From Spirochaetia bacterium (GTDB lineage: Bacteria; Spirochaetota; Spirochaetia; DSM-2461), in the NCBI GenBank assembly GCA_963668315.1, contig OY764216.1, positions 2,464,001 through 2,528,000 of the forward strand: a DNA stretch of 64,000 bases, read 5' to 3'. Both the position numbers and the translations under genes were made by a program. Below, in pieces: positions 169 through 19,930 of the stretch (position 1 is the first letter of the stretch; every line of letters begins with the position of its first letter). The notes beneath the pieces were generated by a model. That model searched no databases. It was not told the DNA's origin and was given only the letters and a program-made list of their open reading frames with translations.

Positions 169-229
169 ATAAGACAGAAAAGGCAGGATTCATATTGAAA
201 ACAGGGAAAGATTGTATTAAATTACACTC

Positions 230-496
230 ATGTACAGAGAGCAAAATGAATGGTACCTGCTGTCCCACGGTTTTCGCCCGGGCGGCGGTTATTTCATTCA
301 TTACGACAGACGAATCATAGTCTCCGACAGGGTGGTGGAGGATTTTGAACCGGTCAAGCTGAGTCTTCACGTCGAGTCTCTCGATGAGGGTCCGATCTCT
401 TTCATCCTTTCAGCCCCTCCCGCCGTCGGAATCCCCGAGGATATCATGAGGCAGCTCAACTGGGAAGGGGAGAAGGCTATCCTCATTCTCAAGTAG
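230..496 (+). CDS. hypothetical protein, 88 aa
   Basis: The ORF fills the gap and is preceded by TTGAAA(195-200)-17 bp-TAAATT(218-223). No recognisable motif. Confidence 0.55.
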   Translation: MYREQNEWYLLSHGFRPGGGYFIHYDRRIIVSDRVVEDFEPVKLSLHVESLDEGPISFILSAPPAVGIPEDIMRQLNWEGEKAILILK

Positions 497-505
497 GAAG
501 CCCGA

Positions 506-1003: not shown

Positions 1004-1099
1004 TCTTTCATCCTCTCAGTTACATCCTATCCCATTTACCGATGAAAAGACAGGGATCTCCCCTTCAAAATATCTTCCCCATTGTATATATTTAATTAA

Positions 1100-1639
1100 A
1101 TGAAACTTAAGGTGATACTCCTGCTCCTTATTCTGCCCTATGCATTATTCTGCGCCCCCGATTCACGGAAGCAGATCTTCTCCCTGGACCTGGACTATGC
1201 ATTGACCGGTGTATTGAACAGGGGCTGGGGACTGGGCGTTTATTATGACAGGGAGATCATCCCCTCCCTGACGGCGAAAGGGGGATTCGGCCACATGACC
1301 TTTCTGGACCGCCATGGCGATTTCACCTGCACCACGGTAAGCGTGACCTTGGCTCTGAACTATTATCCCTTCGGACCCGCTTTCGAAGGGATATACGGGG
1401 GAATCACAAACGGGGCGGATTTCGTCGAATATCTTGATGATAACGAGTTCGACACCGAAGACACGGTCATCTCCTTTATTCCCCATCTGGGATGGAAGAT
1501 CAGAATAAATGATACATTCATGGTCGATCTCTATACGGGCTACAAGTTTTCTCCCTTTACCGGCATATCCCGCAGGGACAGAAATGAGTTTCTTAATATG
1601 GGAATGCAGTATAAAGCGGGATTGAAGGTTTTTCTGTGA
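1100..1639 (+). CDS. secreted protein, probable small outer-membrane beta-barrel (DUF3575-like)
   Basis: Signal peptide, amphipathic Gly/aromatic-rich strands, C-terminal YKAGLKVFL strand; overlaps the next gene by GTGA. Confidence 0.6.
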   Translation: MKLKVILLLLILPYALFCAPDSRKQIFSLDLDYALTGVLNRGWGLGVYYDREIIPSLTAKGGFGHMTFLDRHGDFTCTTVSVTLALNYYPFGPAFEGIYGGITNGADFVEYLDDNEFDTEDTVISFIPHLGWKIRINDTFMVDLYTGYKFSPFTGISRRDRNEFLNMGMQYKAGLKVFL

Positions 1640-2769
1640 CATTCAGTTTCTCCTTTCTGACTCTGATGCTTTTTCTCGGGTTCGGCCAGGCCGCGACAAT
1701 ATCGGGTATCCTTATCTTCCGGCGCAGCAGAAGGGAGAAGGGCGATAACCTTCTCAATATCCTTTTTTTCCTTACCCTGTATCTCTATCTGACCGACCTT
1801 CTCATCCCCACGGGGATCTACCGCATGGTTCCCTTTTTCCTCTTCACCGATTTTCCTGTGCTTTTTCTTGTACCGCCGATACTCTTTCTTTATGTGAAAA
1901 AAATGGTGGGCGCCCGGAGCCTCCTTAAGGGAAAGTATTTCCAGACTCTTCACTTTATTCCCTTCGCCGTTATCGCCTATTCCCATCTGCCCCATATTTT
2001 CATGTCTTCAGCCGATAAGATACGCCTCTTCCAGGATAATACGATTCCGCCGCCGCGCCTTCTGGGAATAGATATGACTCTTCTCGGGCTTATCCAGTAT
2101 CTTCTCTATTTACTGGCATGTTTTTACATGGTTTCCTCCTACCGGAGGAAGAACCGTTATGAATCGGGGCAGATCCGAAAAATCAGAAATATTCTTCTCT
2201 TCTATCTCATTATCCTTATCTGTCTGTCCGCATCCTTCTACAATCTTCTGAATTACAAGTACTATCCGCAGAGAGATTTTTCCTATCTGCGCCTTATTCT
2301 GGATTTCCCGATTTTTGTTATCTGCATCTACAATTACATCCTCCTGATGTCCGGGAGCCAGCCTGTTGAACCGGCGAGAGAACCGGGGGAGAAATACCGG
2401 AAGTCCGGCCTCAGCTCCGGGGAGAACCGGAAAATCTTTGAGACGCTCTGCCGGATTATCGAAAAGGAGAAACTCTGGTCCGACCCTGATATGGATCTCA
2501 GAGCCCTGGCGGAGAAAACGGGATATTCCTATCACCATCTCTCCCAGGTGATTAATCAGTCGGCTGGAATCAACTATCACTCTTTTATCAACCGCTACCG
2601 TATCGGAGAGGCCTGCCGTCTGCTGGAAAGTACGGAAATGACCGTTCTTGATATTGCCTTCACTTCCGGATTTAACTCAAAGCCCACCTTTAATAAAGTC
2701 TTCAAGGAAGAAAAAAACTGCACTCCCACCCAATACCGGGAAAATCGGAGAAAAAAAACATCTCAATAG
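1636..2769 (+). CDS. membrane-embedded AraC-family transcriptional regulator
   Basis: About 7 N-terminal TM segments; C-terminal HHLSQVIN...FINRYRI...IAFTSGFNSKPTFNKVFK...TPTQYR AraC HTH. Confidence 0.9.
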   Translation: MTFSFSFLTLMLFLGFGQAATISGILIFRRSRREKGDNLLNILFFLTLYLYLTDLLIPTGIYRMVPFFLFTDFPVLFLVPPILFLYVKKMVGARSLLKGKYFQTLHFIPFAVIAYSHLPHIFMSSADKIRLFQDNTIPPPRLLGIDMTLLGLIQYLLYLLACFYMVSSYRRKNRYESGQIRKIRNILLFYLIILICLSASFYNLLNYKYYPQRDFSYLRLILDFPIFVICIYNYILLMSGSQPVEPAREPGEKYRKSGLSSGENRKIFETLCRIIEKEKLWSDPDMDLRALAEKTGYSYHHLSQVINQSAGINYHSFINRYRIGEACRLLESTEMTVLDIAFTSGFNSKPTFNKVFKEEKNCTPTQYRENRRKKTSQ

Positions 2770-2770
2770 G

Positions 2771-2793
2771 GTCTCATCCTATCGGATGGAACG
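2771..2793. promoter_or_regulatory. inverted repeat CATCC-TATC-GGATG upstream of the first flavoprotein; candidate AraC operator
   Basis: The palindrome core is at 2775-2788, immediately after the araC stop. Confidence 0.35.
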
Positions 2794-2859
2794 ATATCGC
2801 TCCTTTTTTATCTTAATCTCTCCTGAAAACCAATCTCAGGTGGGAAGAAGGAGTTTTGC

Positions 2860-4674
2860 ATGGATAAAAAGAAAGAAGTAAAATCGGAGAAAGCTATATC
2901 CCGAAGGGATTTTCTCAAGGGAACCGCCGTCGGTATCGCCGGCGTTACCGTCGCCGGAGTGGTAACCGGCTGCGCTCCCAAATATACAGAGCCCTCTTCC
3001 GGCCAGGGAGCGGACGAAGTTTCCGGCGCTTCCGAAGCCGTCCATACGGGGGGCGTCAACGCCGACTGGCTGGGGAAAGCCCCGGTCATTCCCGAATCGG
3101 AAATAAAGGAGACCGTCGAGTCGGAAGTGGTCATCATAGGCGGAGGCCATGCCGGGCTTCAGGCTGCCTGGGCCCTTTCCAAAAAGAACATTAAAACCAG
3201 TGTTATCGAACCCCAGTCCCGGGAAGAGTACCACTGGATCGGCGAGCAGATAGGACACTTCAATTCCCGGTTCCTGATCGATCAGGGTTTGGGCCCCTAT
3301 GACGAAGGGGAGATTATCAACGAGTTTATGAAGTGCAGCGCCAATCGTGTGAATCCCGCTCTCATCTCCCAATATGTCAGAAACTCCGGGCGCATGTTTG
3401 ATCAGTATTACGCATTCGTACCCAAAGACAGCCCCTATCTCAATGCGTTGAATGTGCATCAGGCCTACGGCAAACCCTCCTATCCCATCGAGCGCAGCGG
3501 CTATAAGACCTGGTCCGGCTGTGCCCAGTTCCGGGGAGAGATTTTTTCCGAGCCCATGAAAGGAGTGGGAGCCAATTCCCAGCTGCCCTTCATCAACAGA
3601 ATGATGGTGGACGACTGCGAATCGCGGAGCGTTAAATTCTATAACGGACATACCGGCGTCGTGCTTGAGAAAGAGGGCGGCCGGGTTACGTCCTGTATCG
3701 CTCAGAACTCCGGCGGATATGTCCGATTCAAGGCATCGAAAGCGGTTGTCCTGACAGCGGGCGATTTTGCCGGCAACGCCGATATGTGCAACGCCCTCAT
3801 TACCGAGGTGGCCGAACAAGCCGCGCTCAGAGGGCAGGATCCGGCCAGCATAACCGGCTGGGGCAGGAAGGGTGACGGACACAAAATGGGCATCTGGGCA
3901 GGTGGGCGGATGGAAACCAGCCCCCGGGCCAGCATGACCATGGGGGGCGCCGGAGGACCCTTCGGCATGACGCCCTTTCTTGTTCTGAACAAGAAGGGAA
4001 AGCGGTTTATGAACGAGGATATCGCCATCGGCCAGCCTCCCGTAATCAACAGACAGCCTCTGGGAGCCATCTGCTGCGTTATGGATAAGAACTGGCTGAG
4101 GATCATGCGCAAAAACTCTGTCAACCACGGAAACCCCGACTTCGCCGTACCCGAGTTCATTGAACAGGCCGTAGAGGATATGGAGCATGTCGTTGCTGCC
4201 GGGAAAGATGGGTATGGCGTCAGGAATACGGCTATCACCGAGAGAATGCGGGGGACCGTCTACGGCGCCGAAAGCCTGGAGGAACTGGCCGATTACCTGG
4301 GTTACGCCGGGGAGGATAGGACGAATTTTCTCGCCAGCATCGAGCGGTATAACGAACTCTGCCGCAAAGGCCACGATGACGATTTCGGCAAGCCCGCCGA
4401 TGTCATGCAGGCCATTGAAACGGCTCCCTTCTACGGCTACCGGTCGGACAATACCAGGGCAAGCGTCGGACTGGTCACCCTTTCGGGACTTGTCACGGAT
4501 GATGACTTCAATGTTCTTGACGGGGAAGGTAAACCCATCGAAGGATTATATACCGCCGGAAACTGTCTGGGGGGCCGTTACGCCGTGGCCTATGCGACTC
4601 CTGTGGCGGGTAATTCCATCGGCATGGCCATGACCCACGGGATGCTTCTGGGGGAACAGCTGGCCGAAGCCTAG
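2860..4674 (+). CDS. Tat-exported lipoprotein FAD-dependent oxidoreductase (FAD_binding_2 / flavocytochrome c-like), substrate unknown
   Basis: SRRDFLK twin-arginine motif, VVTGC lipobox, IIGGGHAG FAD motif, GDGHKMGIWAG, RFMNE, IEGLYTAGN. Confidence 0.9.
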   Translation: MDKKKEVKSEKAISRRDFLKGTAVGIAGVTVAGVVTGCAPKYTEPSSGQGADEVSGASEAVHTGGVNADWLGKAPVIPESEIKETVESEVVIIGGGHAGLQAAWALSKKNIKTSVIEPQSREEYHWIGEQIGHFNSRFLIDQGLGPYDEGEIINEFMKCSANRVNPALISQYVRNSGRMFDQYYAFVPKDSPYLNALNVHQAYGKPSYPIERSGYKTWSGCAQFRGEIFSEPMKGVGANSQLPFINRMMVDDCESRSVKFYNGHTGVVLEKEGGRVTSCIAQNSGGYVRFKASKAVVLTAGDFAGNADMCNALITEVAEQAALRGQDPASITGWGRKGDGHKMGIWAGGRMETSPRASMTMGGAGGPFGMTPFLVLNKKGKRFMNEDIAIGQPPVINRQPLGAICCVMDKNWLRIMRKNSVNHGNPDFAVPEFIEQAVEDMEHVVAAGKDGYGVRNTAITERMRGTVYGAESLEELADYLGYAGEDRTNFLASIERYNELCRKGHDDDFGKPADVMQAIETAPFYGYRSDNTRASVGLVTLSGLVTDDDFNVLDGEGKPIEGLYTAGNCLGGRYAVAYATPVAGNSIGMAMTHGMLLGEQLAEA

Positions 4675-4697
4675 GGGCGGAGACATGGTTTCCGGAT

Positions 4698-4731
4698 ACC
4701 GTCGGAAGGAACCTATTCTTCCGGCGGTTTT
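4698..4731 (+). terminator. stem-loop between the flavoprotein gene and tatC (terminator or processing/stabilising hairpin)
   Basis: ACCGTCGGAAGGA-ACCTA-TTCTTCCGGCGGT followed by TTT. Confidence 0.5.
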
Positions 4732-4818
4732 AATCAGACAAAATAGAAAAATCTAGAAAGACGGTTTCTCTGTTTCTGTGGAGAAGAGAGACGCCGTCCT
4801 TGAGCAGGAGTTTCCTTT

Positions 4819-5568
4819 ATGGGAAAAAGCAGAGACGAGATGCCCCTCCTGGAGCATCTGAAAGAGCTCCGCCTGAGAATATTCGTTTCTCTCTTTGGTA
4901 TTATAGCAGGATCGGCGGTGTGCTTTTCCTTTTACGACAGTTTTTTCTCCTTTCTGTTTCAGCCCTTTGCGGTACTTGAAGAGACCATGGGGGAACGGCT
5001 TTTCATCAATTTCATCTACGAGGGATTTCTTATCAAATTTAAACTCTCTCTCATCGCCGGAGCGGTTGTTTCATCCCCCATCCATCTGTTCAATATACTT
5101 GCTTTTCTCTTTCCCGGACTGAAGGGAAAAGAGCGCTGGATTCTCGGGGTGTGCCTGGTGGCGGCGGTGCTTCTCTCCTTTCTGGGTTTTTTTTACGGCT
5201 ATCTCTATATCATACCGATCTCCATCAACTTCCTGACGGGCAGCGGTTTTATACCCGAAGGGGTCGGGATGATTCTGAGTTTCGATAAGAATATATTCTA
5301 TATACTGCGTTTTCTGCTGGGGGGGATTCTGGTCTTTCAGCTCCCCATTATTCTGGAAGTCCTGCTTATTATGAATCTGGTGAGCAGAAAGCAGCTTCTC
5401 AAGGTAAGCCGATTTGTCATCCTGGGGACTTTCCTGCTGGCCGCTCTTTTCACCCCCCCCGATTTCGTGTCCCAGATAGCCATTGCCGTTCCGCTTCTGG
5501 TGCTTTTTTTTCTGGCTCTGCTCATCGCATACATATTCAATTTCGGAAAGGAAGACATACATGCCTAG
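4819..5568 (+). CDS. tatC: twin-arginine translocase subunit TatC
   Basis: MPLLEHLKELR, FLFPGL, FQLP, FTPPD; 6 TM. Confidence 0.95.
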   Translation: MGKSRDEMPLLEHLKELRLRIFVSLFGIIAGSAVCFSFYDSFFSFLFQPFAVLEETMGERLFINFIYEGFLIKFKLSLIAGAVVSSPIHLFNILAFLFPGLKGKERWILGVCLVAAVLLSFLGFFYGYLYIIPISINFLTGSGFIPEGVGMILSFDKNIFYILRFLLGGILVFQLPIILEVLLIMNLVSRKQLLKVSRFVILGTFLLAALFTPPDFVSQIAIAVPLLVLFFLALLIAYIFNFGKEDIHA

Positions 5569-5794
5569 TATCGGATTGTCGGAAATACTTGTTCTGGCCG
5601 TGATCGCCCTGCTCGTTATCAAGCCGAAGGATATACCTTTCATCGCCAGAAAGGCGGGACGGCTTCTTCGTAATTTCAGGGATTATCAGAACATGATTAG
5701 GAAGGAAATGGATTCGATCGTGAACCTCGAAATCCCCGATGAGGGAGGGGAAGAGGGAAAGGGTCATAAGGAAGATAAGACCGTCGGGTCTTAA
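5561..5794 (+). CDS. tatB: twin-arginine translocase subunit TatB (TatA/B family)
   Basis: Start re-called at ATG 5561: MPSIGLSEILVLAVIALLVIKPKDIP followed by an amphipathic helix; overlaps the tatC stop. Confidence 0.8.
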   Translation: MPSIGLSEILVLAVIALLVIKPKDIPFIARKAGRLLRNFRDYQNMIRKEMDSIVNLEIPDEGGEEGKGHKEDKTVGS

Positions 5795-5835
5795 ACATAA
5801 AAATTATCGCATAAATATTTACAGGAGGGTCAAAT

Positions 5836-6054
5836 ATGATAGGGACCACGGAAATAGTCGTTATAGCCGCAACAGGCATGATTTTATTCGGAGCTTCGGC
5901 CATCCCGAAATTCGCCCGCTCCATCGGACAGGCGAAAAAGGAGCTGGAGAAGGGAATGAAGGAAGGCTATGAAAAAGAAGACGAAGACGTCACAGCCGCC
6001 GTTGAAGAGACCGCTGAGTCAAAATCGTCCAAAAAAAGAAAGGTTAAAGCATAA
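5836..6054 (+). CDS. tatA: twin-arginine translocase subunit TatA
   Basis: IGTTEIVVI...ILFG...IPKFARSIG; AGGAGG RBS. Confidence 0.9.
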   Translation: MIGTTEIVVIAATGMILFGASAIPKFARSIGQAKKELEKGMKEGYEKEDEDVTAAVEETAESKSSKKRKVKA

Positions 6055-6068
6055 CGGAGGAGATCATC

Positions 6069-8117
6069 ATGGGAGAAAAATTAACAAGAAGAAACTTCCT
6101 TAAGGGCGCCGCAGGAGCTGTGGGGGCCGTCGCCATCGGCAGTCTGGCCGGATGTAAGCCGAATTATAAAGGGCTTTACACACCGGGAACCTACAAGGCC
6201 ACCGCCAGGGGAATAGGAGAGGTCAACGTGAGCATGACTTTCTCCGAGAGCAAAATCACCGATGTGGTTCTGGATGTATCACAGGAGACGGAGAATATCG
6301 GCCAGGCTGCGGCGGAGAGTCTGAAAAAAGCCATTATGGCTGCCCAGTCCTCCGACATTGATGCCGTATCCGGGGCGACCGTTACCTCCCACGCCGTAAA
6401 GAGCGCTGTGGATAACTGCATTGCCCAGGCGCGCGGAGAAAGCGTCGTTTCCACCGTAACGGGAGCTTCCGAAGAGGTAAAGGATGACGACTGGCTGGGA
6501 CAGGAGCCCCACATCGGTAAGATCGACGGGGTAAAAGAGTGTGATGTTCTGGTCGTCGGGGCCGGACTTTCGGGTATCTGTGCCGCCCGTTCCGCCGCAG
6601 AGGAAGGAGCCAAGGTTATTCTGATTGAAAAATCAAAAAGCTTTAACTGCCGTTCAGGGGAGTATGCCCTTCTTAACGGGACCCTGAACAAGAGATGGGG
6701 CCGTGAGAATATTGTAAGTGCAGATACGGTTGTCAACAGGGAGATGCACGAATCCACCTACCGATCAAAAAGATCGATTCACAGCCGGTGGGCCGAGGAG
6801 GCTCATGAAGTCATGGATTGGTTTATCGGTGCCTATCCGGATCTGACAATCTGCGATTCCACACGTCAGAAGGTAACTCAGGAGCAGTTTGACAAGGGTA
6901 TCCTCGTTCCCCTTTCCTGGCCTCTTCCCGAAAAGTACGACTATAAGGAAGAAGAATTTCCCACCTATCCCTCATCCATGGAGTTCCGTTCCAGCCGGAG
7001 GGATCAGCAGGGGTTTATGGTGGAAGCCCAGCTTAACGACGCAGTGAAAAACGGCACTGAAGTCATCTATGAGACATTCGGGCGCAAACTTCTTAAGGAC
7101 GAAGGCGGACGCGTTACCGGTGTCATAGCCGAAAAGGACGGTAAGTTCACACAATATAATGCGAAAAAGGGGGTCGTCCTGGCCACGGGAGACAATTCGG
7201 CCGACGAGAAAATCCTCAAGCACTTCACCCCTGAGATACTGGAAAAGAATATCGGCAGAATGGCCGCCATGGGTATGCTCGGCGTCGATGCCAAGGGAGA
7301 TCCCATCAGTACCGGAGACGGTCTGAGAATGGGGGCCTGGGCGGGAGCCAAGGTTCAGGACTACCATGCTCCCATGACTCATCATATGGGCGGCGGGAAT
7401 GTCGGCCAGACCGTGGGGGTCACCCCATTTCTTCAGCTGAACAAGCACGGGGAGCGCTTTATGAACGAGTGTATCCCCGGGCAGCAGCTGGAAAATCAGA
7501 TAGAGCTTCAGCCCGAACACACATCCTTTCAGATCTATGATGCCGACTGGGGAAAGCAGATTCCTTTCATGCCCGCCAACCACGGCGGATTGTGCTACAT
7601 CATCCCCGAAGAGGAAGACGAGAGCAACCCCAACTTCGCCGACCGGCAGTACACGAAAATCTCTGCCAAAGAGAAGGAAGGCTCCTACGATTTCAAAGCC
7701 GATTCGGTCGAAGATCTTCTTAAGCAGATAGGCTACGAAGGGAAGGCCTTTGAGAAAGCCCTGGCCTCCGTCAAACGGTATAACGAACTGGCGAAAAAGG
7801 GTGTTGACGAAGATTTCGGCAAGTCGGGCAAGAGAATGTTCGCTCTGGAGAAAGGGCCTTTCTATGCCAACCGCTGGGGAACCACGGTCATGCTGGTCTG
7901 CCTGGGGGGGCTGGAATCGGATGAAAACTGCCATACCTTTACGGCGGGATCTCCCGATAACCCGGCAAGGGATATTATCCCCGGACTTTATGTTACAGGT
8001 AATGTTCAGGGAAACCGGTTTTCCGTGGAGTATCCCATCTCCCTGCGGGGGATCAGCCACTCCATGTGTGTCTTCTACGGTTATGTGGCCGGGAAAAACG
8101 TCGTCAGAGAAGCTTGA
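6069..8117 (+). CDS. Tat-exported lipoprotein FAD oxidoreductase with N-terminal FMN-binding (flavinylated) domain
   Basis: TRRNFLK, SLAGC lipobox, YTPGTY...DAVSGATVTS FMN_bind motif, VVGAGLSG, TGDGLRMGAWAG, RFMNE. Confidence 0.9.
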   Translation: MGEKLTRRNFLKGAAGAVGAVAIGSLAGCKPNYKGLYTPGTYKATARGIGEVNVSMTFSESKITDVVLDVSQETENIGQAAAESLKKAIMAAQSSDIDAVSGATVTSHAVKSAVDNCIAQARGESVVSTVTGASEEVKDDDWLGQEPHIGKIDGVKECDVLVVGAGLSGICAARSAAEEGAKVILIEKSKSFNCRSGEYALLNGTLNKRWGRENIVSADTVVNREMHESTYRSKRSIHSRWAEEAHEVMDWFIGAYPDLTICDSTRQKVTQEQFDKGILVPLSWPLPEKYDYKEEEFPTYPSSMEFRSSRRDQQGFMVEAQLNDAVKNGTEVIYETFGRKLLKDEGGRVTGVIAEKDGKFTQYNAKKGVVLATGDNSADEKILKHFTPEILEKNIGRMAAMGMLGVDAKGDPISTGDGLRMGAWAGAKVQDYHAPMTHHMGGGNVGQTVGVTPFLQLNKHGERFMNECIPGQQLENQIELQPEHTSFQIYDADWGKQIPFMPANHGGLCYIIPEEEDESNPNFADRQYTKISAKEKEGSYDFKADSVEDLLKQIGYEGKAFEKALASVKRYNELAKKGVDEDFGKSGKRMFALEKGPFYANRWGTTVMLVCLGGLESDENCHTFTAGSPDNPARDIIPGLYVTGNVQGNRFSVEYPISLRGISHSMCVFYGYVAGKNVVREA

Positions 8118-8133
8118 TAATTTCCCTATTAAC

Positions 8134-8160
8134 GGGCTGTCCCCCCTCTGGGGACGGCCC
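8134..8160 (+). terminator. GC-rich hairpin ending the Tat/flavoprotein operon
   Basis: GGGCTGTCCCC-CCTCT-GGGGACGGCCC; no U-tract. Confidence 0.45.
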
Positions 8161-8201
8161 CATCGAAGAAGAGAAAAAACCTTGAAATCTTCTTTGAAAA
8201 A

Positions 8202-8230
8202 TTGATTTTCCCCCTTTCTCTTACTACACT
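8202..8230 (+). promoter_or_regulatory. sigma70-type promoter for dctP, probably leaderless
   Basis: TTGATT-17 bp-TACACT; ATG follows 6 nt later; no Shine-Dalgarno. Confidence 0.5.
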
Positions 8231-8236
8231 TTTACT

Positions 8237-9247
8237 ATGGGGAGAAACATTACCGAAATAATCGTACTTTTTTTCTTTACCGCCTTGCTCGGAGCTCAGC
8301 CGGTTATGAGAATTTCCGTGGAGAACACTCCCAGCCATGTTCAGACCAGGGCGGTGGAACGGTTTGCTGAAAAACTGCAGGAGCGGCTGGAGGGCAGGCT
8401 CACCATAGAGTTTTATTCCGGAGCCGCCCTGTTCAGGGATCAGGATGTCTTCGGGGGAATGGCCCGGGGACGGGTGGAAATGGCGGTTCCGGGTACCTGG
8501 CAGATAGATAGGAGAATACCCGAGGCCGGGCTATTTCTGCTCCCTGAATTTTACGGCCTGGGCCCCTGGTTGAATTACCAGGTTATGGCAAGTCCCCTCG
8601 GTGATTTGATAAATAACAGAATAGAGGACGGCTTGGGTGTTAAGGTTCTCGGCGACTGGATTGATCTGGGCCCGGCCCAGCTGTTCAGCTGCGGCGACTC
8701 CTTTGAAAGCTATGACGATATAGCAAACCGGCGTATCCGGGTCGCCGGGGGAGTGGGAAACCAGCTGCGTATCTCCCTCCTGGGAGGAGAACCGATGGTC
8801 ATCGCCTTTCCCGATCTCCCTTTTTTTCTCAACCAGGGAAAGGCCGACGGCGTTTTGACCACCTATGAATCCGTACAGAGCGCCTCCCTGTGGGATTACG
8901 GCATTAACAGCGTTTTTGAGGATAACCAGTATTTCGGCCAGTATGTCCCCATGATAGCCGAAGAGTTCTGGAGCCGGCTTCCCGAAGATATCCGGATCAT
9001 TCTCATCGAGACCTGGCAGGAAGGGGTCGGAACGGCCCGGGCCGAAGCCGCGGAGGCGCAGATCCGTGCCAAAGAGCTGTTTATCCGCTCCGGGGGGCAG
9101 GTCTTTGTCCCTTCCCATGACTATCTTGCTCAGAAGAGAGCCGAACTTGTCGAAGGCAGTCCCCAAATCGCCCGGGACATCGGTATTTCCGAAGAAGTGT
9201 ATTCCATGCTGGAAAAATTCGTCGGCACAGAGGGGGACAATCCATGA
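8237..9247 (+). CDS. dctP: TRAP-type solute-binding protein (DctP family), orphan
   Basis: Signal peptide; AVERFAEKLQERLEGRLTIEFY...LF; conserved RIRV arginine; LNQGKADG; FWSRLPEDIR. Confidence 0.85.
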   Translation: MGRNITEIIVLFFFTALLGAQPVMRISVENTPSHVQTRAVERFAEKLQERLEGRLTIEFYSGAALFRDQDVFGGMARGRVEMAVPGTWQIDRRIPEAGLFLLPEFYGLGPWLNYQVMASPLGDLINNRIEDGLGVKVLGDWIDLGPAQLFSCGDSFESYDDIANRRIRVAGGVGNQLRISLLGGEPMVIAFPDLPFFLNQGKADGVLTTYESVQSASLWDYGINSVFEDNQYFGQYVPMIAEEFWSRLPEDIRIILIETWQEGVGTARAEAAEAQIRAKELFIRSGGQVFVPSHDYLAQKRAELVEGSPQIARDIGISEEVYSMLEKFVGTEGDNP

Positions 9248-10776
9248 AGCCGGCGGGGTTCAGGGGACGACCGGGCGAAGGTCCCCCGCTGATTCTTCTA
9301 GCTCTTCTCCCTCTTTTGATAGGGGCGGGAATCTTTATCACCATGCTTAATGGATTCAGCCGTTACAGGGACCGGCTCTGCGAAGGAATGAAAAGCACGT
9401 CCCAGCTGCACGGCAGACTTGTGGCGGAACAGATACGGGGCAGGCTCTCCTCCCTGGACCTTCTCCTTTTGATGCTGGAGAACCGTTCACTCCGGTATAA
9501 TCTTTCCGAAGAGGAAAACTCACGGCAGTTTTACCGATATCTCAAAAACCGGGCCCTGCTTCTGACGCCGGTCAATCAAATCTTTATGCTCGATTCCGGG
9601 GGACGGATGAAATACACCACCGATGCAAAACCACCCTGCGAAGAGTGCCGCCGTTTGTATGAGGGATTGATGTTCAGCCACGTAGATCAGCTTCTCTCCT
9701 TTGCCGTTATGCCCTGGATCAGGGAAAATGAATCCTACCTTGTCATGAGCCGGAGAATTGATAATCCCGACGGCAGTCTGGCGGGCATCCTGGCGGCTGA
9801 GATTTCTGAAACCATGCTCTTCGATGATATTGAGTATTCCGACTCCATGATACTCAGCAATGCCGTCCTCTTTAATGAAGAGGCCCGTGTCTTTGCCGCT
9901 ATCCGGGCTGACGGGGCTGAAGGGGAGAGGGAAGGCCTGTACTCCTGCCTCGGCATTACCCGGGAGGAGCTGGAGGAATCGGGGGTTAGCGGAATGGTAG
10001 GCGGTATCGCCACCGTTTTTTCCGGCGATCATCTGACCACTCTGATACAGATCAAGGACTTCAGTTTTCAACTGGGCCTCCGCTACGATATGAGTCCCCA
10101 GCTGGAAATATGGAGGCAGCGCCGTCTGATCAGCCTATCCGTCGTGATCATCGGGACGTGGGTTATCTTGCTTTTCACCATCGCCGTCATCAGGCTGATC
10201 GGGGAGAAGCAGAAGGTAAGGGCGGAGATGATGGAGAACCTTGAGCATATGGTGGAGGAACGGACGGCGGAACTGAATGCGGCTCTTCTCAGGATTGAGA
10301 GGCTGGTGTCCTACGATCCCCTTACCGACGCCCTGAACCGGAGGGGCATGTTAAAACTGCTGGAACAGAATTATGCCCGGGTACAACGATACGGCGGCTC
10401 CTTTACGCTGGTGATGTGTGATATCGACTATTTCAAGAAAATCAACGACACCTTCGGCCATGAAGAGGGGGACAGGGCTCTCTGCTATGCCGTGGGACTG
10501 TTGAAAGAGAGATTGCGGAAGAGCGATCAGATCTCACGGTGGGGAGGGGAGGAATTTCTTATTTATTATCCCGAGCTGGAGCATGATAAGGCTTTAAGGC
10601 TGACGGATAAACTGCGCAAGGCCTTTGAAGAACATCCCTGGAGAGAGGATAATGCCATGACTTGCAGTTTCGGTGTTGCCTCTTTACAGGAGAATGAGGA
10701 TTTGGAATCCCTCATCAGGCGGGCCGATACCGCCATGTACCGGGCAAAGAAGAAAAGGAATTCCGTTTCCGAATAG
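9244..10776 (+). CDS. membrane diguanylate cyclase with periplasmic Cache-like domain
   Basis: Two TM segments flanking a periplasmic domain; DPLTDALNRR, DIDYFKKINDTFGH, RKSD I-site, RWGGEEF. Confidence 0.9.
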   Translation: MKPAGFRGRPGEGPPLILLALLPLLIGAGIFITMLNGFSRYRDRLCEGMKSTSQLHGRLVAEQIRGRLSSLDLLLLMLENRSLRYNLSEEENSRQFYRYLKNRALLLTPVNQIFMLDSGGRMKYTTDAKPPCEECRRLYEGLMFSHVDQLLSFAVMPWIRENESYLVMSRRIDNPDGSLAGILAAEISETMLFDDIEYSDSMILSNAVLFNEEARVFAAIRADGAEGEREGLYSCLGITREELEESGVSGMVGGIATVFSGDHLTTLIQIKDFSFQLGLRYDMSPQLEIWRQRRLISLSVVIIGTWVILLFTIAVIRLIGEKQKVRAEMMENLEHMVEERTAELNAALLRIERLVSYDPLTDALNRRGMLKLLEQNYARVQRYGGSFTLVMCDIDYFKKINDTFGHEEGDRALCYAVGLLKERLRKSDQISRWGGEEFLIYYPELEHDKALRLTDKLRKAFEEHPWREDNAMTCSFGVASLQENEDLESLIRRADTAMYRAKKKRNSVSE

Positions 10777-10784
10777 GCGGGAAG

Positions 10785-10817
10785 AAAAAAAAGGCTGCCC
10801 CGTCGGGGACAGCCTTT
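10785..10817 (-). terminator. intrinsic terminator between convergent genes
   Basis: A8-GGCTGCCCC-GTC-GGGGACAGCC-TTT; U-tract on the minus strand. Confidence 0.7.
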
Positions 10818-10834
10818 GTCAGTATCGGTTGTAC

Positions 10835-11548
10835 TTAGCGCTTAACAGCTGTGAGTACACCCTTGGCGGAAAGGGTATTTCCGGTCAGAGCAAACTGCAG
10901 ATCTCCGTCCCAGAAATACATGGAGGCGGGATCGGCACCGATTTTCATAACATCCGATGACCAGACCTTACCGAAATCCACGCCCCGGGCGGTTCCGTCG
11001 GAGGAAAATGCCGCTTCCAGTTCCTGGGGGGTACCGATCTTACGGGCTACCATATCCCCGTTGGGCAGGGAAAGAACGCCGTTCTTGTCGGTGGTGAATT
11101 TGTAAGCCGTACCTCTGTGTACATACTGGATGGTAATTGTTCCGTCCGAAGCTTTTACCGCATTCAGGTTGTCGCCTTTTGTCTGCTCGCCGCTGTTACA
11201 GCCAAAAAGGAAAAGTCCCCTCAGACCGGAAGTCATGGTCTCCTTGGCTTCCACATCGTAGAGATACATCATGAAAAGATGGGTGGAACCGGCGGCGGAA
11301 GCTCCCGAAACGGCATCGTAACTGTCTTCGGCAGCCATGTATCTTACGTTGCCTTTCCAGTTAAAATGGTTCTCCGAAGCGTTTCCGGCCAGACTTACCT
11401 GATAATCAATCGTCAGGTCTTCCGAACCGTCAGAGACAGCTGCGGAAGGCTGGGCTGCTGCGGGAGCAGAAGCCATTTCAGGCTTCGGGGCACACGAAGC
11501 CAATACAACTAACATAACAGTGGTGAGAAAAAATAGTTTTTTCATCAT
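10835..11548 (-). CDS. uncharacterised lipoprotein with DAVSGAS flavinylation-like motif
   Basis: MMKKLFFLTTVMLVVLASC lipobox; Ala/Pro linker; SYDAVSGAS. The start was chosen for spacing from AAGGAG. Confidence 0.8.
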   Translation of the reverse strand: MMKKLFFLTTVMLVVLASCAPKPEMASAPAAAQPSAAVSDGSEDLTIDYQVSLAGNASENHFNWKGNVRYMAAEDSYDAVSGASAAGSTHLFMMYLYDVEAKETMTSGLRGLFLFGCNSGEQTKGDNLNAVKASDGTITIQYVHRGTAYKFTTDKNGVLSLPNGDMVARKIGTPQELEAAFSSDGTARGVDFGKVWSSDVMKIGADPASMYFWDGDLQFALTGNTLSAKGVLTAVKR

Positions 11549-11736
11549 ATACATTCTCCTTTATATTTATTTTAAACACTACATCTGGCCTAGTCAATTT
11601 TTAATTGTCTTTTATTAGCTAAAAATATCTATAAAAATAGTAGTAAATCAGATCGTGCGGGGAAATTTTCAGGAAATGGATGATTTTCCACATTTTCGTA
11701 TTGAATTCTTCGAATCGATAAATTATTATTGAAAAA

Positions 11737-11770
11737 GTTCACAGAATTGATTCGGTGAACAAAATTCTGT
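11737..11770. promoter_or_regulatory. overlapping inverted repeats upstream of the flavocytochrome-like gene; candidate TetR operator
   Basis: GTTCACAGAATTGATTCGGTGAAC (20 of 24 positions palindromic) and ACAGAATT...AATTCTGT. Confidence 0.55.
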
Positions 11771-11789
11771 TAGTTAAAGAGGAAGAGAA

Positions 11790-13571
11790 ATGAAACGATT
11801 TATCCCGTTTTTCATGGCAGCTGTGATGGCTGTCACTTTGATGGGCTGCGGAAGTAAGGTATCCTTTACTCCCGGTACGTACCAGGGGGGAGCTCCCGGT
11901 ATTCACGGAGAAGATGTTGTTCTTGAAGTAACCGTGGACAAGAAGGAAATCAAGGAAATTAAAGTTATTCAGAATCATGAGACACCCGGTGTCTCCGATG
12001 CTGCCTTCGACAGGATTCCCAAAGCTATTATCAAGGGCCAGACCCTGGCCGTAGATACCGTAGCCGGTGCCACCTACTCCAGCAACGCCATTCTCGGGGC
12101 TGTGAAAGAAGCCCTCGAAGCGGCCGGTGCCGACCTCAGCCTTCTTGTCAGTGAAGCCGAGGAAGCCGATGCCGTTACCGCTGCAACGGAAGTTCTTAAT
12201 GCCGATATCGTTATCATCGGTGCCGGCGGTGCCGGTCTTGCCGCTGCTGTTTCCGCCAATCAGAACGGCGCCAGCGTCATCGTATTTGAAAAGATGCCCC
12301 AGGTCGGCGGTAACACGATCATTTCCGGCTCCGCCTTCAATGCGGCCGACCCCTCCCGCCAGATTCCCCAGGGCATCGAAGACTCTCCCGAGAAGCATTT
12401 CGAGCAGACCCTTAAGGGCGGAGACAACATGGGCGACCCCGTACTGGTGAAAACTCTTACCGATAACGCCTATCCCACTCTCCAGTGGCTGGAAAGTCTG
12501 GGCATGGAGTTCAAAGACCATGTCTTTACCGTTCTCGGCGGTCTCTGGCCCCGTGCGCACAAGCCTGTTATGCCCCTCGGTACGGGTTACCTGAAAACCT
12601 ATATGGATTATGTTAACTCCCACGACGGCATTACCGTTCTCACCGACACCAAAGCCACCGATATCTATCTGGAAGATGACGGCTCCGGTGTGAAAAGAGC
12701 CAGCGTTGTCAAGGCACAGGGCCTGAACGGTACCGTTGTTGCTCAGGGCCACAAGGCCGTTATCATCGCTACCGGCGGTTTCGGTGCCAGCGTCGAGCTG
12801 AGAGAGAAGTACAACAAGCACTGGCCCTCTCTGGCTAATATCGGAACCACGAACCATCCCGGCGCTACCGGTGACGGTCTGGCTCTGGCCGAAGCTGTCA
12901 ACGCCGATCTTGTAGGTCTCGAGTACATCCAGCTCCTCCCCATGGGAGACCCCGTTACGGGAAGTCTTTCCGGAAACATCGAGCAGGCCGTTGAAAACCG
13001 TATCTTCATCAACAAGGACGGTAACCGCTTCGTTGATGAGGGCGAGAGAAGAGACGTTATGACCCGGGCTCTTTTTGAGCAGGAAGATACCTTCATGTGG
13101 ATCGTTCTGGATTCTCACAACTATCCCACCATGGATACGAAGAACAACTTCAACGAAACCATTCAGGAACTCGTTGACCAGAACAGAGCTGTCATGGCCG
13201 ATACCCTTGACGAGCTTGCCGAGAAGATGAACGTTCCCGCCGAAAACCTCAAAGCCGCCGTTGCCGAGTTCAACGCCGCTGTGGAAACGGGCGGACCCGA
13301 TTCATTCGGCAGAACTCTTTTTCAGTACAAGATGGATACGCCTCCCTATTTCGCCGGAGGAAGAATGCCCACCGTACACCACACCATGGGCGGTATCAAG
13401 ATCAATGAGAAAGCTCAGGTTATCGATAAGGAAGGCAACGTGATTCCCGGTCTGTATGCCGCCGGTGAAGCCACCGGAGGAATCCACGGAACCAACAGGC
13501 TCGGTGGAAACGCTCTGGCCGATATCAACGTATTCGGTAAGATCGCCGGCGCCAACGCCGCGGCGGAATAA
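11790..13571 (+). CDS. lipoprotein flavocytochrome c / urocanate-reductase-like reductase (FMN_bind + FAD_binding_2)
   Basis: TLMGC lipobox, HETPG...DTVAGATYSS, IIGAGGAG, VHHTMGG, HGTNRLGGNAL. Confidence 0.9.
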   Translation: MKRFIPFFMAAVMAVTLMGCGSKVSFTPGTYQGGAPGIHGEDVVLEVTVDKKEIKEIKVIQNHETPGVSDAAFDRIPKAIIKGQTLAVDTVAGATYSSNAILGAVKEALEAAGADLSLLVSEAEEADAVTAATEVLNADIVIIGAGGAGLAAAVSANQNGASVIVFEKMPQVGGNTIISGSAFNAADPSRQIPQGIEDSPEKHFEQTLKGGDNMGDPVLVKTLTDNAYPTLQWLESLGMEFKDHVFTVLGGLWPRAHKPVMPLGTGYLKTYMDYVNSHDGITVLTDTKATDIYLEDDGSGVKRASVVKAQGLNGTVVAQGHKAVIIATGGFGASVELREKYNKHWPSLANIGTTNHPGATGDGLALAEAVNADLVGLEYIQLLPMGDPVTGSLSGNIEQAVENRIFINKDGNRFVDEGERRDVMTRALFEQEDTFMWIVLDSHNYPTMDTKNNFNETIQELVDQNRAVMADTLDELAEKMNVPAENLKAAVAEFNAAVETGGPDSFGRTLFQYKMDTPPYFAGGRMPTVHHTMGGIKINEKAQVIDKEGNVIPGLYAAGEATGGIHGTNRLGGNALADINVFGKIAGANAAAE

Positions 13572-13602
13572 TCCTGCCAGATACAGACGTTAGATAGAAA
13601 CG

Positions 13603-13634
13603 GCGCCGTTCCTTCGGGGACGGCGCTTTTTTTT
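13603..13634 (+). terminator. intrinsic terminator
   Basis: GCGCCGTTCC-TTCG-GGGACGGCGC-T8. Confidence 0.85.
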
Positions 13635-13666
13635 GCCCCCGGATAAGTCCCGGAGGGCGGGAATTC

Positions 13667-14263
13667 CTATTTTTCCATGCCGAGCAGCAGATTGTTCAGA
13701 ATGAACGTCATGCGGTTTCTCAGGTCAAATTTACCGTCATGGAGGCACCAGTGGAAGACGACTCCCCTCGCGCATATGAAGATGCTTTCACAGATCTCCT
13801 CGGGAGGGAGGGAGGAGGAGAACCTCTCTTCCCTTACCGCCCTGTCTATCAGGCCGGTTAATCTGGTCTGCATGGGACGTCCTTTACGGACAAAGGTTTT
13901 GTTCATATGGGTAAAGAAAATTTTCGTGAAGTCCAGTCCTGTATCAAGAATCAGGTCGGTATAGGAGTCCATATATTCCAGAATAAGCTCCCGGCCCGAA
14001 TCGCCCGAATCTTCCTTTCCCGCCCAGGCTTCAAAGTTCCTGTCGGCCATGAAGAATGTGTCGTCCAGGATGCTTTCCTTCGAAGGATAGTGGTGGTAGA
14101 AGGCTCCTACGGAACAGGATGCCTTACGGCAGATTTCTGTGATTTTCGTGTTTTCGAAACCCTTTTCAGTAAACAGCTGAATGGCGGTTTCATAGATCTT
14201 CTTCTTGGATTTCTCCGCCTGAAGCTCTCTTGATGTTTTTACTTTTTCCAGAATCTCTGCCAT
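13667..14263 (-). CDS. TetR/AcrR family regulator
   Basis: AIQLFTEKGFENTKITEICRKASCSVGAFYHHYPSKE HTH; start re-called at MAEIL. Confidence 0.9.
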   Translation of the reverse strand: MAEILEKVKTSRELQAEKSKKKIYETAIQLFTEKGFENTKITEICRKASCSVGAFYHHYPSKESILDDTFFMADRNFEAWAGKEDSGDSGRELILEYMDSYTDLILDTGLDFTKIFFTHMNKTFVRKGRPMQTRLTGLIDRAVREERFSSSLPPEEICESIFICARGVVFHWCLHDGKFDLRNRMTFILNNLLLGMEK

Positions 14264-14317
14264 GGGGCTATTTTCCTGTTTTTCCTTTTTTTTGACAATG
14301 ACTATCGTCATATTTTT

Positions 14318-15061
14318 CTATTGACCTGCGTCAATCATTTCCTGCAGCGCCGCTTTTGCCAGGGAAAATTCCATCCCGATCTCAAGACAGTAATCCCTGA
14401 CGGCCATGCTCCTGGTCCCCGGGTCGATCCCTCCCAGAGCGTCCCTGACCTGCTCCTCTGTCAGTCCCCAGGAATAGAGATCCGCAAAGGTGGTTTTCCC
14501 CTTGACGGTCATATCCGTTTCCTCCGCCTCTTCATGGCTTATTTCGGCTGCATCCGCTTCCGCCACGTCCTTCAGCTCTTCCAGGGATACGATCATGGGC
14601 GTCAGTTCCTCTATCATCTCCTCCGAAAGAGAGGCCTCTTTCTTGAGGATATTGAAGGCCGGCTGGGGGAGACCCGTATCCTCTTCCGGCGTATAGGGCA
14701 GTCCCAGATAGAGGGCTACGAAGAGTCTCAGACTGTCCGTCCCGATCTCCCGCCCGTCCACGATACCGTATACTTCCTCGAAAAGTTTGGCCTGCACCGA
14801 GGCGGGATCTTCCGCTTCGGAGAACCCGAAGGCCTTAGCCGTTGTCTCCACGGGAATGGAGAAGGCTGTCTCAATGTCACCGAAGGAGTAGGAGCCCCGA
14901 ATGTCCGCCGGATTGTACTGGCCCGCGAATTCTCCCGTTTCGAAACGGACCGGTTCCTTGGAACTTTCGGTGCTCCAGTATCCGCTTATCATGGTGGACC
15001 CGATTCCCAGAAGGAAAAAGGCAGGCAGTACGACTGCGGCTGTTTTTGCTGATATTCTCAT
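14318..15061 (-). CDS. membrane-anchored hypothetical protein, partner of the 4Fe-4S protein
   Basis: Single N-terminal TM; two related segments (IRGSYSFGDI...FSIP and VKGKTTFADL...WGL); stop/start overlap with the upstream gene. Confidence 0.75.
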   Translation of the reverse strand: MRISAKTAAVVLPAFFLLGIGSTMISGYWSTESSKEPVRFETGEFAGQYNPADIRGSYSFGDIETAFSIPVETTAKAFGFSEAEDPASVQAKLFEEVYGIVDGREIGTDSLRLFVALYLGLPYTPEEDTGLPQPAFNILKKEASLSEEMIEELTPMIVSLEELKDVAEADAAEISHEEAEETDMTVKGKTTFADLYSWGLTEEQVRDALGGIDPGTRSMAVRDYCLEIGMEFSLAKAALQEMIDAGQ

Positions 15062-15909
15062 TATTCCGCCTCCTTTACGGCCTCGTCGAAGGAGCCGGTT
15101 CTGAACTCCAGGGTTCCCCCTACCGGACAGACCCCGTCATCGCTGGTACACTGATAACAGCTGATGCACTGATGGTTTCTGACCGTGCCCGATTGTGATA
15201 CGGGAATATTCATGGGACAGGCCTTGTCGCACTTTTTACAGTTTATACAGGTGGAGCCGTTCCGTTTGAGAGGAATGACTCTGAAGAGATTGAAGAGGCC
15301 CAGAACGGCTCCGTAGGGGCAGGCGTATTTGCAGAAGGGCCTCTCCACAAAGAGGGAGAGCAGAATGACGGCACCCAGGGAGATGAATCCCGTTACGGCG
15401 ACTTCTCCCGTCCAGAACTGGAAAAGGGCGTAGTAGGGATCTACATCGGAGAAGACCAGCTGGCCGGACCGGGCGGTCATGAAAATAACCCAGATAAGCA
15501 GGAAATAACGGAGAAAACGCAGATATTTATCTACAGAATAGGGAAGGAAACGGTTATATTTCTTGGGAAATATCTTCTTCCCGATTTTTCCTGTCAGCTC
15601 CTGGAAGGTGCCGAAGGGGCAGATCCATCCGCAGAAAAGCGGTCCGAGAAGAAGAGCCGAAGCAAAGACAATATACATAAGGACAAGGCTTGACTCGTGA
15701 ATCTTCTTGACAAATGTTCCCGCCGCCGCAAGCTGGTAAAGGGTGACGACTCCCCCGAAAGGACAGATCGAATGGAGGGACGCTTCCCCTATGACGGGAA
15801 TGCCCTTACCCGCTTCCGCGAGGGTATGGTTGACGGCAATCAGGGCTATGAACAGAAAAAAAACGATCTGAATCACCCGTCTCAGTTTTTTCCCCTTTCT
15901 TTCTCTCAT
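15061..15909 (-). CDS. NapH/MauN-like 4Fe-4S membrane electron-transfer protein
   Basis: 4 TM; CGWICP and CKYACP motifs; CINCKKCDKACP and CISCYQC...CP ferredoxin motifs. Confidence 0.9.
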   Translation of the reverse strand: MRERKGKKLRRVIQIVFFLFIALIAVNHTLAEAGKGIPVIGEASLHSICPFGGVVTLYQLAAAGTFVKKIHESSLVLMYIVFASALLLGPLFCGWICPFGTFQELTGKIGKKIFPKKYNRFLPYSVDKYLRFLRYFLLIWVIFMTARSGQLVFSDVDPYYALFQFWTGEVAVTGFISLGAVILLSLFVERPFCKYACPYGAVLGLFNLFRVIPLKRNGSTCINCKKCDKACPMNIPVSQSGTVRNHQCISCYQCTSDDGVCPVGGTLEFRTGSFDEAVKEAE

Positions 15910-16102
15910 AAAAACTCCTTAATGATGAACGGTATGTATTTAGTATAGGCTATTCCGAATCTATAAACAAAATATGAAGGAAATAAGTTTATATTGGTGA
16001 ATTAAGCGGTCTTTTATACTTCTCCCGGTGGTTTTCCCTGAAAAAAGTTGTGCAAAAAGGGGGTTAGGGGTATACTATTCTTTAATCCGGGATCATTATT
16101 GA

Positions 16103-19913: not shown

Positions 19914-19930
19914 TTCCCTTCTCCGCACCG

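What the first reader, a model, noticed from the sequence alone, without database searches (positions are those of the whole stretch)
1100..15909. Candidate flavin-based extracytoplasmic respiration island with its own Tat translocase
Seen: 15 kb carry three different lipoprotein FAD_binding_2 oxidoreductases (two Tat, one Sec). Three proteins carry flavinylation-type motifs (DAVSGAT, DAVSGAS, DTVAGAT). The block also holds tatCBA, a NapH-like 4Fe-4S membrane protein with a partner, and three sensors (membrane AraC, TetR, DctP-GGDEF). Known: ApbE attaches FMN at [S/T]GA[S/T] motifs, and NapH-like proteins can feed electrons to flavinylated extracytosolic reductases. Inference: this is a cytochrome-free branched electron-transfer chain for organic electron acceptors in a probable spirochaete. 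No apbE and no CxxCH proteins are visible in the block.
Basis: partly seen in the sequence, partly recalled or inferred. Interest (0 to 1): 0.8.

Follow-up and report, generated by a model that had tools for sequence, protein, structure and literature searches.

The report
Flavin-tagged lipoprotein family of spirochaetes
The 15-kb block is a patchwork of known parts for flavin-based respiration outside the cell membrane, not one island, but it holds a lipoprotein of a spirochaete-wide family with no recognised domain or solved fold, whose best-conserved residues match the flavin-attachment motif and which likely carries electrons to exported reductases.

The parts
1100..1639 (+). small exported protein, weak OMP beta-barrel similarity; probably a bystander
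   Evidence: PF13505 E=0.002, below cut-off; no homologue beside araC in fetched relatives
1636..2769 (+). membrane-bound AraC regulator, likely regulator of R2 and tat
   Evidence: HTH_18 plus weak HisKA_7TM; 52-58% orthologue next to R2 or tatC in G030, G032, G020
2860..4674 (+). R1: Tat lipoprotein flavin reductase without FMN_bind domain; Tyr at the UrdA Arg560 position
   Evidence: not found at E<=1e-60 in 37 other family genomes; named relatives are Coriobacteriia and Clostridia
   Evidence: sequence; the three closest homologues (63-65%) keep DAVSGAT or DAVSAAT there; only 6 of 53 short-linker Tat homologues have such a motif, query included
4819..5568 (+). tatC, the only copy in the genome
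   Evidence: TIGR00945 above cut-off; single hit; clade of 5 (100/99), each beside a Tat-signal PF00890 protein
5561..5794 (+). tatB (77 aa)
   Evidence: PF02416; start read
5836..6054 (+). tatA
   Evidence: PF02416
6069..8117 (+). R2: Tat lipoprotein, FMN_bind plus FAD_binding_2; motif DAVSGAT at 6360-6380; Tyr at the UrdA Arg560 position
   Evidence: orthologues (75-80%) in 4 of 37 family genomes, beside tatCBA in 3 of these 4
8237..9247 (+). solitary DctP solute-binding protein
   Evidence: PF03480; paired with the GGDEF gene in L050
9244..10776 (+). membrane diguanylate cyclase (GGEEF)
   Evidence: PF00990; convergent on the lipoprotein in L050 and L163
10790..10817 (-). strong terminator-like hairpin between the GGDEF gene and the lipoprotein gene
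   Evidence: 12-pair stem; consensus match only
10835..11554 (-). 239-aa lipoprotein of an unannotated spirochaete family; candidate new ApbE substrate and electron carrier
11297..11317 (-). DAVSGAS motif; the last Ser is the predicted FMN site
   Evidence: its D, A and last S are the three most conserved columns among distant members
11790..13571 (+). R3: Sec lipoprotein, FMN_bind plus FAD_binding_2, two-arginine enoate-reductase active site; motifs DTVAGAT (12054-12074) and DAVTAAT (12168-12188)
   Evidence: orthologues in 9 of 37 family genomes
13602..13627 (+). strong terminator-like hairpin after R3
   Evidence: 11-pair stem
13667..14311 (-). TetR regulator, likely regulator of R3
   Evidence: PF00440; orthologue beside R3 in 8 of 9 fetched regions
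14318..15061 (-). membrane-anchored partner of the NapH-like protein; no flavinylation motif; C-terminal domain resembles the YtfE N-terminal domain
15061..15909 (-). NapH/MauN-like 4Fe-4S membrane protein; probably not the donor for these reductases
   Evidence: PF12801, TIGR02163 below cut-off; no reductase in 8 of 8 wider regions of relatives

Best explanation
The block is a native patchwork of five modules of a genome-wide, cytochrome-c-free system in which ApbE likely attaches FMN to periplasm-facing lipoproteins, and its unannotated 239-aa lipoprotein is predicted to be a new kind of FMN-carrying electron shuttle. Likely path: NADH gives electrons to the membrane Ndh2, which reduces a demethylmenaquinone-type quinone made by DmkA/DmkB (or Rnf supplies them). 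Electrons then pass to covalent FMN on the lipoprotein and on the FMN_bind domains or linker tags of the reductases, and from there to the FAD that reduces an organic C=C acceptor. EetB likely exports the FAD that ApbE uses. R3 keeps the two-arginine site of urocanate/fumarate reductases but has neither's specificity residue, so it likely reduces another enoate. R1 and R2 belong to a Tat-exported, tyrosine-type clade, and the single tatCBA is likely kept to export these two. AraC likely controls R2, TetR likely controls R3. Shown: genes, motifs, their conservation, neighbours, missing cytochrome c assembly gene. Inferred: flavinylation, direction and route of electrons, regulation, substrates.
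For: Genome has apbE, 23 FMN_bind matches, 21 reductase-like PF00890 genes of which 17 carry FMN_bind and 2 a Tat signal, ndh2/dmkA/hepT at 5.287-5.291 Mb, eetA/eetB at 2.98 Mb, Rnf at 3.12 Mb, and no PF01578. R3 orthologues lie next to eetA-eetB in both same-genus genomes that have R3. Lipoprotein motif: 112 of 120 close and 106 of 118 aligned distant members, 27 of 30 loci from the phylum search, top three conserved columns. It matches the seven-residue D-x-x-[S/T]-G-A-[S/T] motif that a review gives as sufficient for ApbE (PMC12052999, passages). Neighbours in 80 loci: full-length EET-type Ndh2 11, apbE 6, eetB 6, eetA 5, dmkA 3, Rnf 1, against about 0.3 expected for one single-copy gene (kin are not independent, but at least four gene orders occur). 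Two more loci end an Rnf operon and two flank a PF00890 gene. Modules lie apart in G020 and G007, both nearly closed genomes.
Against: No experiment, and no expression data. In most of the 80 loci no redox marker was found nearby. EET-type Ndh2 was found in only 14 of 36 lipoprotein-bearing genomes, in 0 of 9 of genus g65 and 1 of 13 of family f26, so the family is no obligate Ndh2 partner. ApbE co-occurrence does not discriminate: 34 of 36 with the lipoprotein, 22 of 27 without. Many genomes with Ndh2 lack the lipoprotein (10 of 24), and 17 of the reductases have their own FMN_bind domain, so a shuttle may not be needed. The divergent lipoprotein-R3 pairing was seen in no relative. No MqnA/MqnD gene was found and the men pathway was not searched, so the quinone head group's source is open. 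The R1/R2 active-site alignment is at low identity.
Confidence: 0.62

Rival explanations
1. One reading: one self-contained respiratory island in which the NapH-like protein and its partner feed all three reductases, with three sensors controlling it.
For: All genes lie together here and in a relative at about 94% identity. napH is three genes from an FMN_bind gene, so it meets the operational 'NapH-like system' rule of PMC8238504 (passages). napH, partner and tetR are co-oriented. G007 has an R3 paralogue, a Tat reductase, tat and R2 within 14 kb.
Against: Modules unlinked in relatives; partner without motif in 25 of 25 and without an FMN_bind-like fold among its best matches; another NapH-like gene in this genome has its own FMN_bind partner at 1.124 Mb; native codon use; strong terminators and divergent units inside the block.
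Confidence: 0.1
2. The lipoprotein is flavinylated but is not a relay to the reductases: it is a terminal surface or periplasmic redox protein (metal or quinone reduction as PplA in Listeria, iron assimilation, or a flavin store).
For: Kept with its motif in lineages without EET-type Ndh2; stands where PplA would in several ndh2-hepT-dmkA loci that show no FMN_bind hit; mostly a solitary gene; a PF00890 neighbour in few loci.
Against: Neighbours, where informative, include both donors (Ndh2, Rnf) and reductases; no recurring iron-transport cluster among the top neighbour clusters (read from N-terminal sequences only).
Confidence: 0.2
3. The motif in the lipoprotein is conserved for a structural or other binding reason and is not flavinylated.
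For: No bench data; always Ser at the last position (116 of 118), which ApbE modifies less well than Thr (PMC12052999, passages); three loci lack the motif.
Against: Exact seven-residue match, the top conserved columns down to about 22-26% identity, export signals, and repeated linkage to apbE, eetAB, ndh2 and rnf.
Confidence: 0.08

Closest known systems
ApbE-flavinylated extracytosolic fumarate reductase-like enzymes (PF00890 + PF04205): Listeria FrdA, Shewanella UrdA; reductase arsenals of Eggerthella, Sutterella, Holdemania
   Same: R2 and R3 have this architecture; PMC8238504 counts 3070 such proteins in 1236 genomes (passages). R3 matches UrdA at E=1.4e-86 and keeps Arg411, His520, Arg560. 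R1 and R2 have Tyr at the last position, as clades 2-4 in bioRxiv 10.1101/2022.12.26.521950 (passages).
   Different: R3 has Leu for Tyr373 (His in fumarate reductases) and Glu for Asp388, so it is neither typed enzyme. The arsenal (21) is above the usual <5 but below the >30 class, and lies in a spirochaete. Two members are Tat lipoproteins with the translocase between them.
Listeria flavin-based EET locus (Ndh2, DmkA, DmkB, EetA, EetB, FmnA, FmnB, PplA)
   Same: Ndh2, DmkA-like, DmkB-like, EetA, EetB and ApbE homologues are in the genome. In Listeria the reductase FrdA also lies outside the locus (PMC9973259, passages). Spirochaete eetA/eetB rows are already in that paper's data set.
   Different: Genes dispersed over three loci here; diderm host; in several spirochaete loci the unannotated lipoprotein stands where PplA (FMN_bind) would.
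Non-FMN_bind ApbE substrates: DUF2271, DUF3570, NqrB/RnfD, flavinylated Flavodoxin_4 and FMN_red; Treponema pallidum TP0171
   Same: Exported protein with one conserved D-x-x-S/T-G-A-S/T motif and guilt by association with apbE, the reasoning by which those were found and then proven (PMC8238504, PMC11334425, PMC4436053).
NapH-like flavinylation-associated systems (PF12801; PceC, NosR)
   Same: PF12801 membrane protein within five genes of an FMN_bind gene.
   Different: No FMN_bind domain on it or its partner, and the proximity is not kept in relatives.
Substrate-dedicated Tat systems encoded beside their cargo (e.g. Bacillus TatAdCd-PhoD, staphylococcal Tat-FepABC; recalled, from no call)
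   Same: tat genes sit beside the few substrates; 15 of 20 fetched spirochaete tatC regions hold a Tat-signal protein.
   Different: Three-component TatABC in a diderm; cargo is flavin-reductase lipoproteins.

Membership tests
Flavinylated PF00890 extracytosolic reductases (R2, R3) | PF00890 catalytic domain with export signal | tested here: met
   lipoboxes
Flavinylated PF00890 extracytosolic reductases (R2, R3) | FMN_bind domain with motif, and apbE in the genome | tested here: met
   R3's motif has Ala at position 4, most orthologues Ser or Thr
Flavinylated PF00890 extracytosolic reductases (R2, R3) | covalent FMN and reductase activity | not testable with these tools
   needs protein
Urocanate reductase UrdA (R3) | Arg411, His520, Arg560 | tested here: met
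   R421, H530, R570
Urocanate reductase UrdA (R3) | Tyr373, and Asp/Asn/Gln at 388 (PMC7921117, passages) | tested here: not met
   Leu383 and Glu398
Soluble fumarate reductase (R3) | His at the Tyr373 position | tested here: not met
   Leu383
NapH-like flavinylated system | PF12801 gene within five genes of an FMN_bind or apbE gene (operational rule) | tested here: met
NapH-like flavinylated system | own FMN_bind domain or a conserved flavinylated partner | tested here: not met
   no FMN_bind hit; motif in 0 of 25 partners; no reductase in 8 of 8 wider regions
Listeria-type EET system (genome-wide) | membrane Ndh2, DmkA, DmkB, EetA, EetB, ApbE present | tested here: met
   the fmnA-like gene had no Pfam hit and is named from position only
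Listeria-type EET system (genome-wide) | ndh2 within five genes of apbE or an FMN_bind gene | tested here: not met
   genes around ndh2 listed; no FMN_bind match there; apbE 1.3 Mb away
FMN_bind, DUF2271, DUF3570, Flavodoxin_4, FMN_red (lipoprotein) | Pfam profile match | tested here: not met
   none of these families matched any of 113 members at E<=0.05
FMN_bind, DUF2271, DUF3570, Flavodoxin_4, FMN_red (lipoprotein) | shared fold | tested here: inconclusive
ApbE substrate (lipoprotein) | exported protein with conserved D-x-x-[S/T]-G-A-[S/T] | tested here: met
ApbE substrate (lipoprotein) | ApbE-dependent covalent FMN on the last Ser | not testable with these tools
   needs co-expression
Genomic island | foreign composition, tRNA or repeat borders, mobility genes, joint gain or loss | tested here: not met
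   mobility genes were screened only as near-identical paralogues
Substrate-dedicated Tat system | sole tatC beside the genome's only Tat substrates | tested here: met
   pattern screen, not SignalP; further Tat signals lie in the high-GC tail of the contig

The most novel reading that the evidence does not exclude
The 239-aa lipoprotein is the founding member of a spirochaete-wide class of ApbE substrates with an undescribed fold: a one-FMN periplasmic shuttle that does for spirochaetes what PplA does in Listeria and cytochrome c does in Shewanella, linking Ndh2-quinone or Rnf to an arsenal of about twenty exported organic reductases, two of which come with their own Tat translocase.
Probability: 0.42. 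Interest if true: 0.72.

Novelty: new variant of a known kind. Interest (0 to 1): 0.5.

Why it matters
PMC8238504 states that less common ApbE substrates remain unidentified; this family is a concrete candidate that one co-expression can test, and it may give a new fold. It is found in free-living spirochaetes, gut treponemes and a further lineage, organisms mostly treated as fermenters. A flavinylated shuttle plus about twenty exported reductases would point to respiration of organic acceptors in a phylum absent from the main text of the three surveys I searched. The block itself, as a gene cluster, is of modest interest: its reductases belong to a family counted in over a thousand genomes.

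Full report
Observation. Pfam and NCBIfam name three PF00890 proteins (R1 2860-4674, R2 6069-8117, R3 11790-13571), tatC, tatB, tatA, a membrane AraC, DctP, a GGDEF protein, TetR and a PF12801 protein; the 239-aa lipoprotein and the 247-aa partner hit nothing. R1 and R2 have Tat signals; R2 and R3 have FMN_bind domains. The three motifs are present. R1 has a fourth, DEVSGAS, in a linker with no domain, and R3 has a variant DAVTAAT. A contig of run X1, which may be the source, covers 200-17800 without differences; contigs of X5 and X6 (one sample of another study) cover it colinearly with 1112 differences. Named homologues place the host among Spirochaetales.

Genome context. The genome (5.62 Mb, 97% complete) has one apbE at 3.97 Mb, 23 FMN_bind matches and 24 PF00890 matches in 22 genes; one of these I take for L-aspartate oxidase from its sequence and left out. 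Of the other 21, 17 carry FMN_bind and only R1 and R2 carry a Tat signal. So the block holds 3 of 21 such enzymes. The genome also has a membrane Ndh2 with a UbiA-type and a polyprenyl synthase gene (5.287-5.291 Mb), NusG_II and PF07456 genes (2.98 Mb; PF07456 is EetB, the FAD exporter subunit, in PMC9973259, passages, whose data set labels NusG_II as EetA), Rnf (3.12 Mb) and a second Rnf/Nqr-like set. No cytochrome c assembly gene PF01578 was found (control 9 of 14), and the only multihaem ORF among 37 CxxCH ORFs with five motifs lies in a compositionally foreign tail of the contig. 'Cytochrome-c-free' therefore holds for the genome proper.

Is it one island? No. In 37 other genomes of the family, R2 orthologues occur in 4, R1 in 0 at E<=1e-60, R3 in 9, the lipoprotein in 12, the NapH partner in 27; tatC occurs in 12 of 36, one under the cut-off. 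In G020 (3 contigs) tatC, R2, R3, lipoprotein and partner lie at C1:305,810, C2:1,442,826, C1:28,169, C1:349,422 and C2:1,919,608; G007 is scattered likewise, apart from tat-R2. Fetched regions show stable small modules: araC with R2 and tat (tat beside R2 in 3 of 4 genomes, araC in 3 of 4); R3 with tetR (8 of 9); napH with partner (no reductase in 8 of 8 wider regions, fused in 3 loci); lipoprotein with GGDEF-dctP (L050, L163 only). In both same-genus genomes that have R3, eetA-eetB follow it. GC3 and codon use are native, and there is no tRNA or flanking repeat. Against this: the whole block is intact in the 94% relative, and G007 has an R3 paralogue about 8 kb from its tat genes.

Tat. tatC is single-copy. 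A pattern screen gave 18 ORFs, 4 with the strict motif: R1, R2, one 151-aa ORF that looks spurious and one in the foreign tail. The window's TatC falls in a clade of five (100/99), each beside a Tat-signal PF00890 protein. Of 20 fetched tatC regions (of 27 non-self places), 15 hold a Tat-signal ORF. R1's named relatives are Coriobacteriia and Clostridia; 87 of 120 hits have an RRxF signal, and the three closest keep the linker motif, though only 6 of 53 short-linker homologues do. I infer that tat is kept to export these two folded FAD lipoproteins; dedicated Tat systems are known from Firmicutes (recalled; my search found no paper).

The lipoprotein. A protein search gave 200 hits, 120 listed, all named ones spirochaetes; 112 of 120 have DxxS/TG[AS]S/T. 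A profile search gave 162 clusters at 50% identity; of 147 new ids, 118 cover the motif and 106 match it loosely, and 88 of 110 long ones hold the strict motif against 0.09% of shuffles. The last Ser, the Ala and the Asp of the motif are the three most conserved columns. A review gives D-x-x-[S/T]-G-A-[S/T] as the minimal ApbE tag (PMC12052999, passages). No Pfam family fits any of 113 members. The AlphaFold model is confident (pLDDT 90.6, pTM 0.81, mainly beta) and has no close solved match. In an even sample of 301 genomes of the phylum 42 matched, own genome included: 13 of 40 in f26, 2 of 4 in f31, 26 of 34 weakly in f46; 27 of 30 fetched loci keep the motif and an f46 member aligns at 99.2% probability. 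In 80 loci from named genomes, 11 have a full-length EET-type Ndh2 nearby, 6 apbE, 6 eetB, 5 eetA, 3 dmkA, 1 Rnf (about 0.3 expected per single-copy gene), in at least four gene orders. Two further loci end an Rnf operon and two flank a PF00890 gene. Against a fixed partner: Ndh2 in 14 of 36 carriers and 10 of 24 non-carriers, ApbE in 34 of 36 and 22 of 27, and most loci show no redox marker.

Mechanism. Shown: parts, motifs, linkage, dispersal. Inferred: EetB exports FAD, ApbE tags the motif Ser or Thr with FMN, Ndh2-quinone or Rnf moves electrons across the membrane, tagged lipoproteins pass them to the FAD of the reductases, which reduce organic C=C acceptors under separate regulators. I put 0.62 on this patchwork model, about 0.85 on the lipoprotein being flavinylated, and 0.42 on its being the relay to the reductases.

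Literature. Read: PMC11334425 parts 1-3 of 5 and passages; passages of PMC8238504, PMC9973259 with searches of its cut supplement, PMC7921117, PMC4436053, PMC12052999 and the bioRxiv paper. These list FMN_bind, NqrB/RnfD, DUF2271, DUF3570, Flavodoxin_4 and FMN_red as substrate classes, and TP0171 in Treponema pallidum. The stem 'spiroch(aet)' has 0 occurrences in the main text of PMC8238504, PMC11334425 and the bioRxiv paper. Nine searches showed no account of this family, but a family without a name is hard to search, and supplement 1 of PMC8238504 could not be read. Two earlier AI notes also see a spirochaete EET locus and the Ndh2 loop motifs; they are leads, not support, and none matched the lipoprotein by sequence.

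Verdict. Observation confirmed; interpretation partly supported. The cluster is a chance-like gathering of known modules. The finding worth keeping is the unannotated lipoprotein family as a candidate new ApbE substrate class, with the dedicated Tat cassette and the domain-free tag of R1 as smaller points. New variant of a known kind; interest 0.5.

Noticed in passing
G000:C1 about 5,420,000-5,624,497 (outside the window): GC 0.57-0.62 against about 0.52, GC3 0.73 against 0.63, codon distance 0.43 against 0.27; holds a five-haem c7-type cytochrome and further Tat signals though the genome has no PF01578 gene: foreign DNA or a mis-joined contig.
   Followed up: partly
L179:2002-3963 (G000 ndh2) and L066-L129: The membrane Ndh2 has an Ala-rich loop with [DE]xx[ST]AA[ST] repeats, also in 9 of 11 other spirochaete Ndh2 proteins; possible flavinylation sites. 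An earlier AI note (e1-9317711) says the same.
   Followed up: partly
window 12168-12188: Second motif variant DAVTAAT in the R3 linker, kept as Dxx[STA]AAT in the orthologues of all 9 fetched genomes.
   Followed up: partly
L030, L031, L034, L037, L040, L042, L045: Spirochaete tatC clusters sit beside varied Tat cargo: FAD_binding_2 with Succ_DH_flav_C, an old-yellow-enzyme-type NADH:flavin oxidoreductase, DUF362.
   Followed up: partly
L041:9681-14209: tatC and tatA directly upstream of an EET-type ndh2 and hepT, with no Tat-signal ORF found by my pattern.
   Followed up: no
L202-L215 (genus g65): Distant lipoprotein homologues (21-29% identity, HH probability 99.2%) keep the motif; 26 of 34 genomes of that family matched weakly, often at two places. 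Probably Brachyspira (my guess, from no call).
   Followed up: partly
L184:1099-2227: A second NapH-like gene followed by a small FMN_bind protein with DAVTGAT: the textbook NapH-like flavinylated pair of this genome.
   Followed up: no
L066:8956-10260, L067:9059-10366, L070:8905-10281: A 435-aa lipoprotein with a weak C-terminal FMN_bind hit follows the lipoprotein gene in these EET loci, a possible PplA counterpart.
   Followed up: no
window 506-1003 (-), 16103-17731 (+), 17868-22307 (+): Flanks: O6-methylguanine methyltransferase, a second GGDEF gene (linked to napH in two same-genus genomes), then what look like beta-galactosidase, LacI and galT genes (from sequence only).
   Followed up: no
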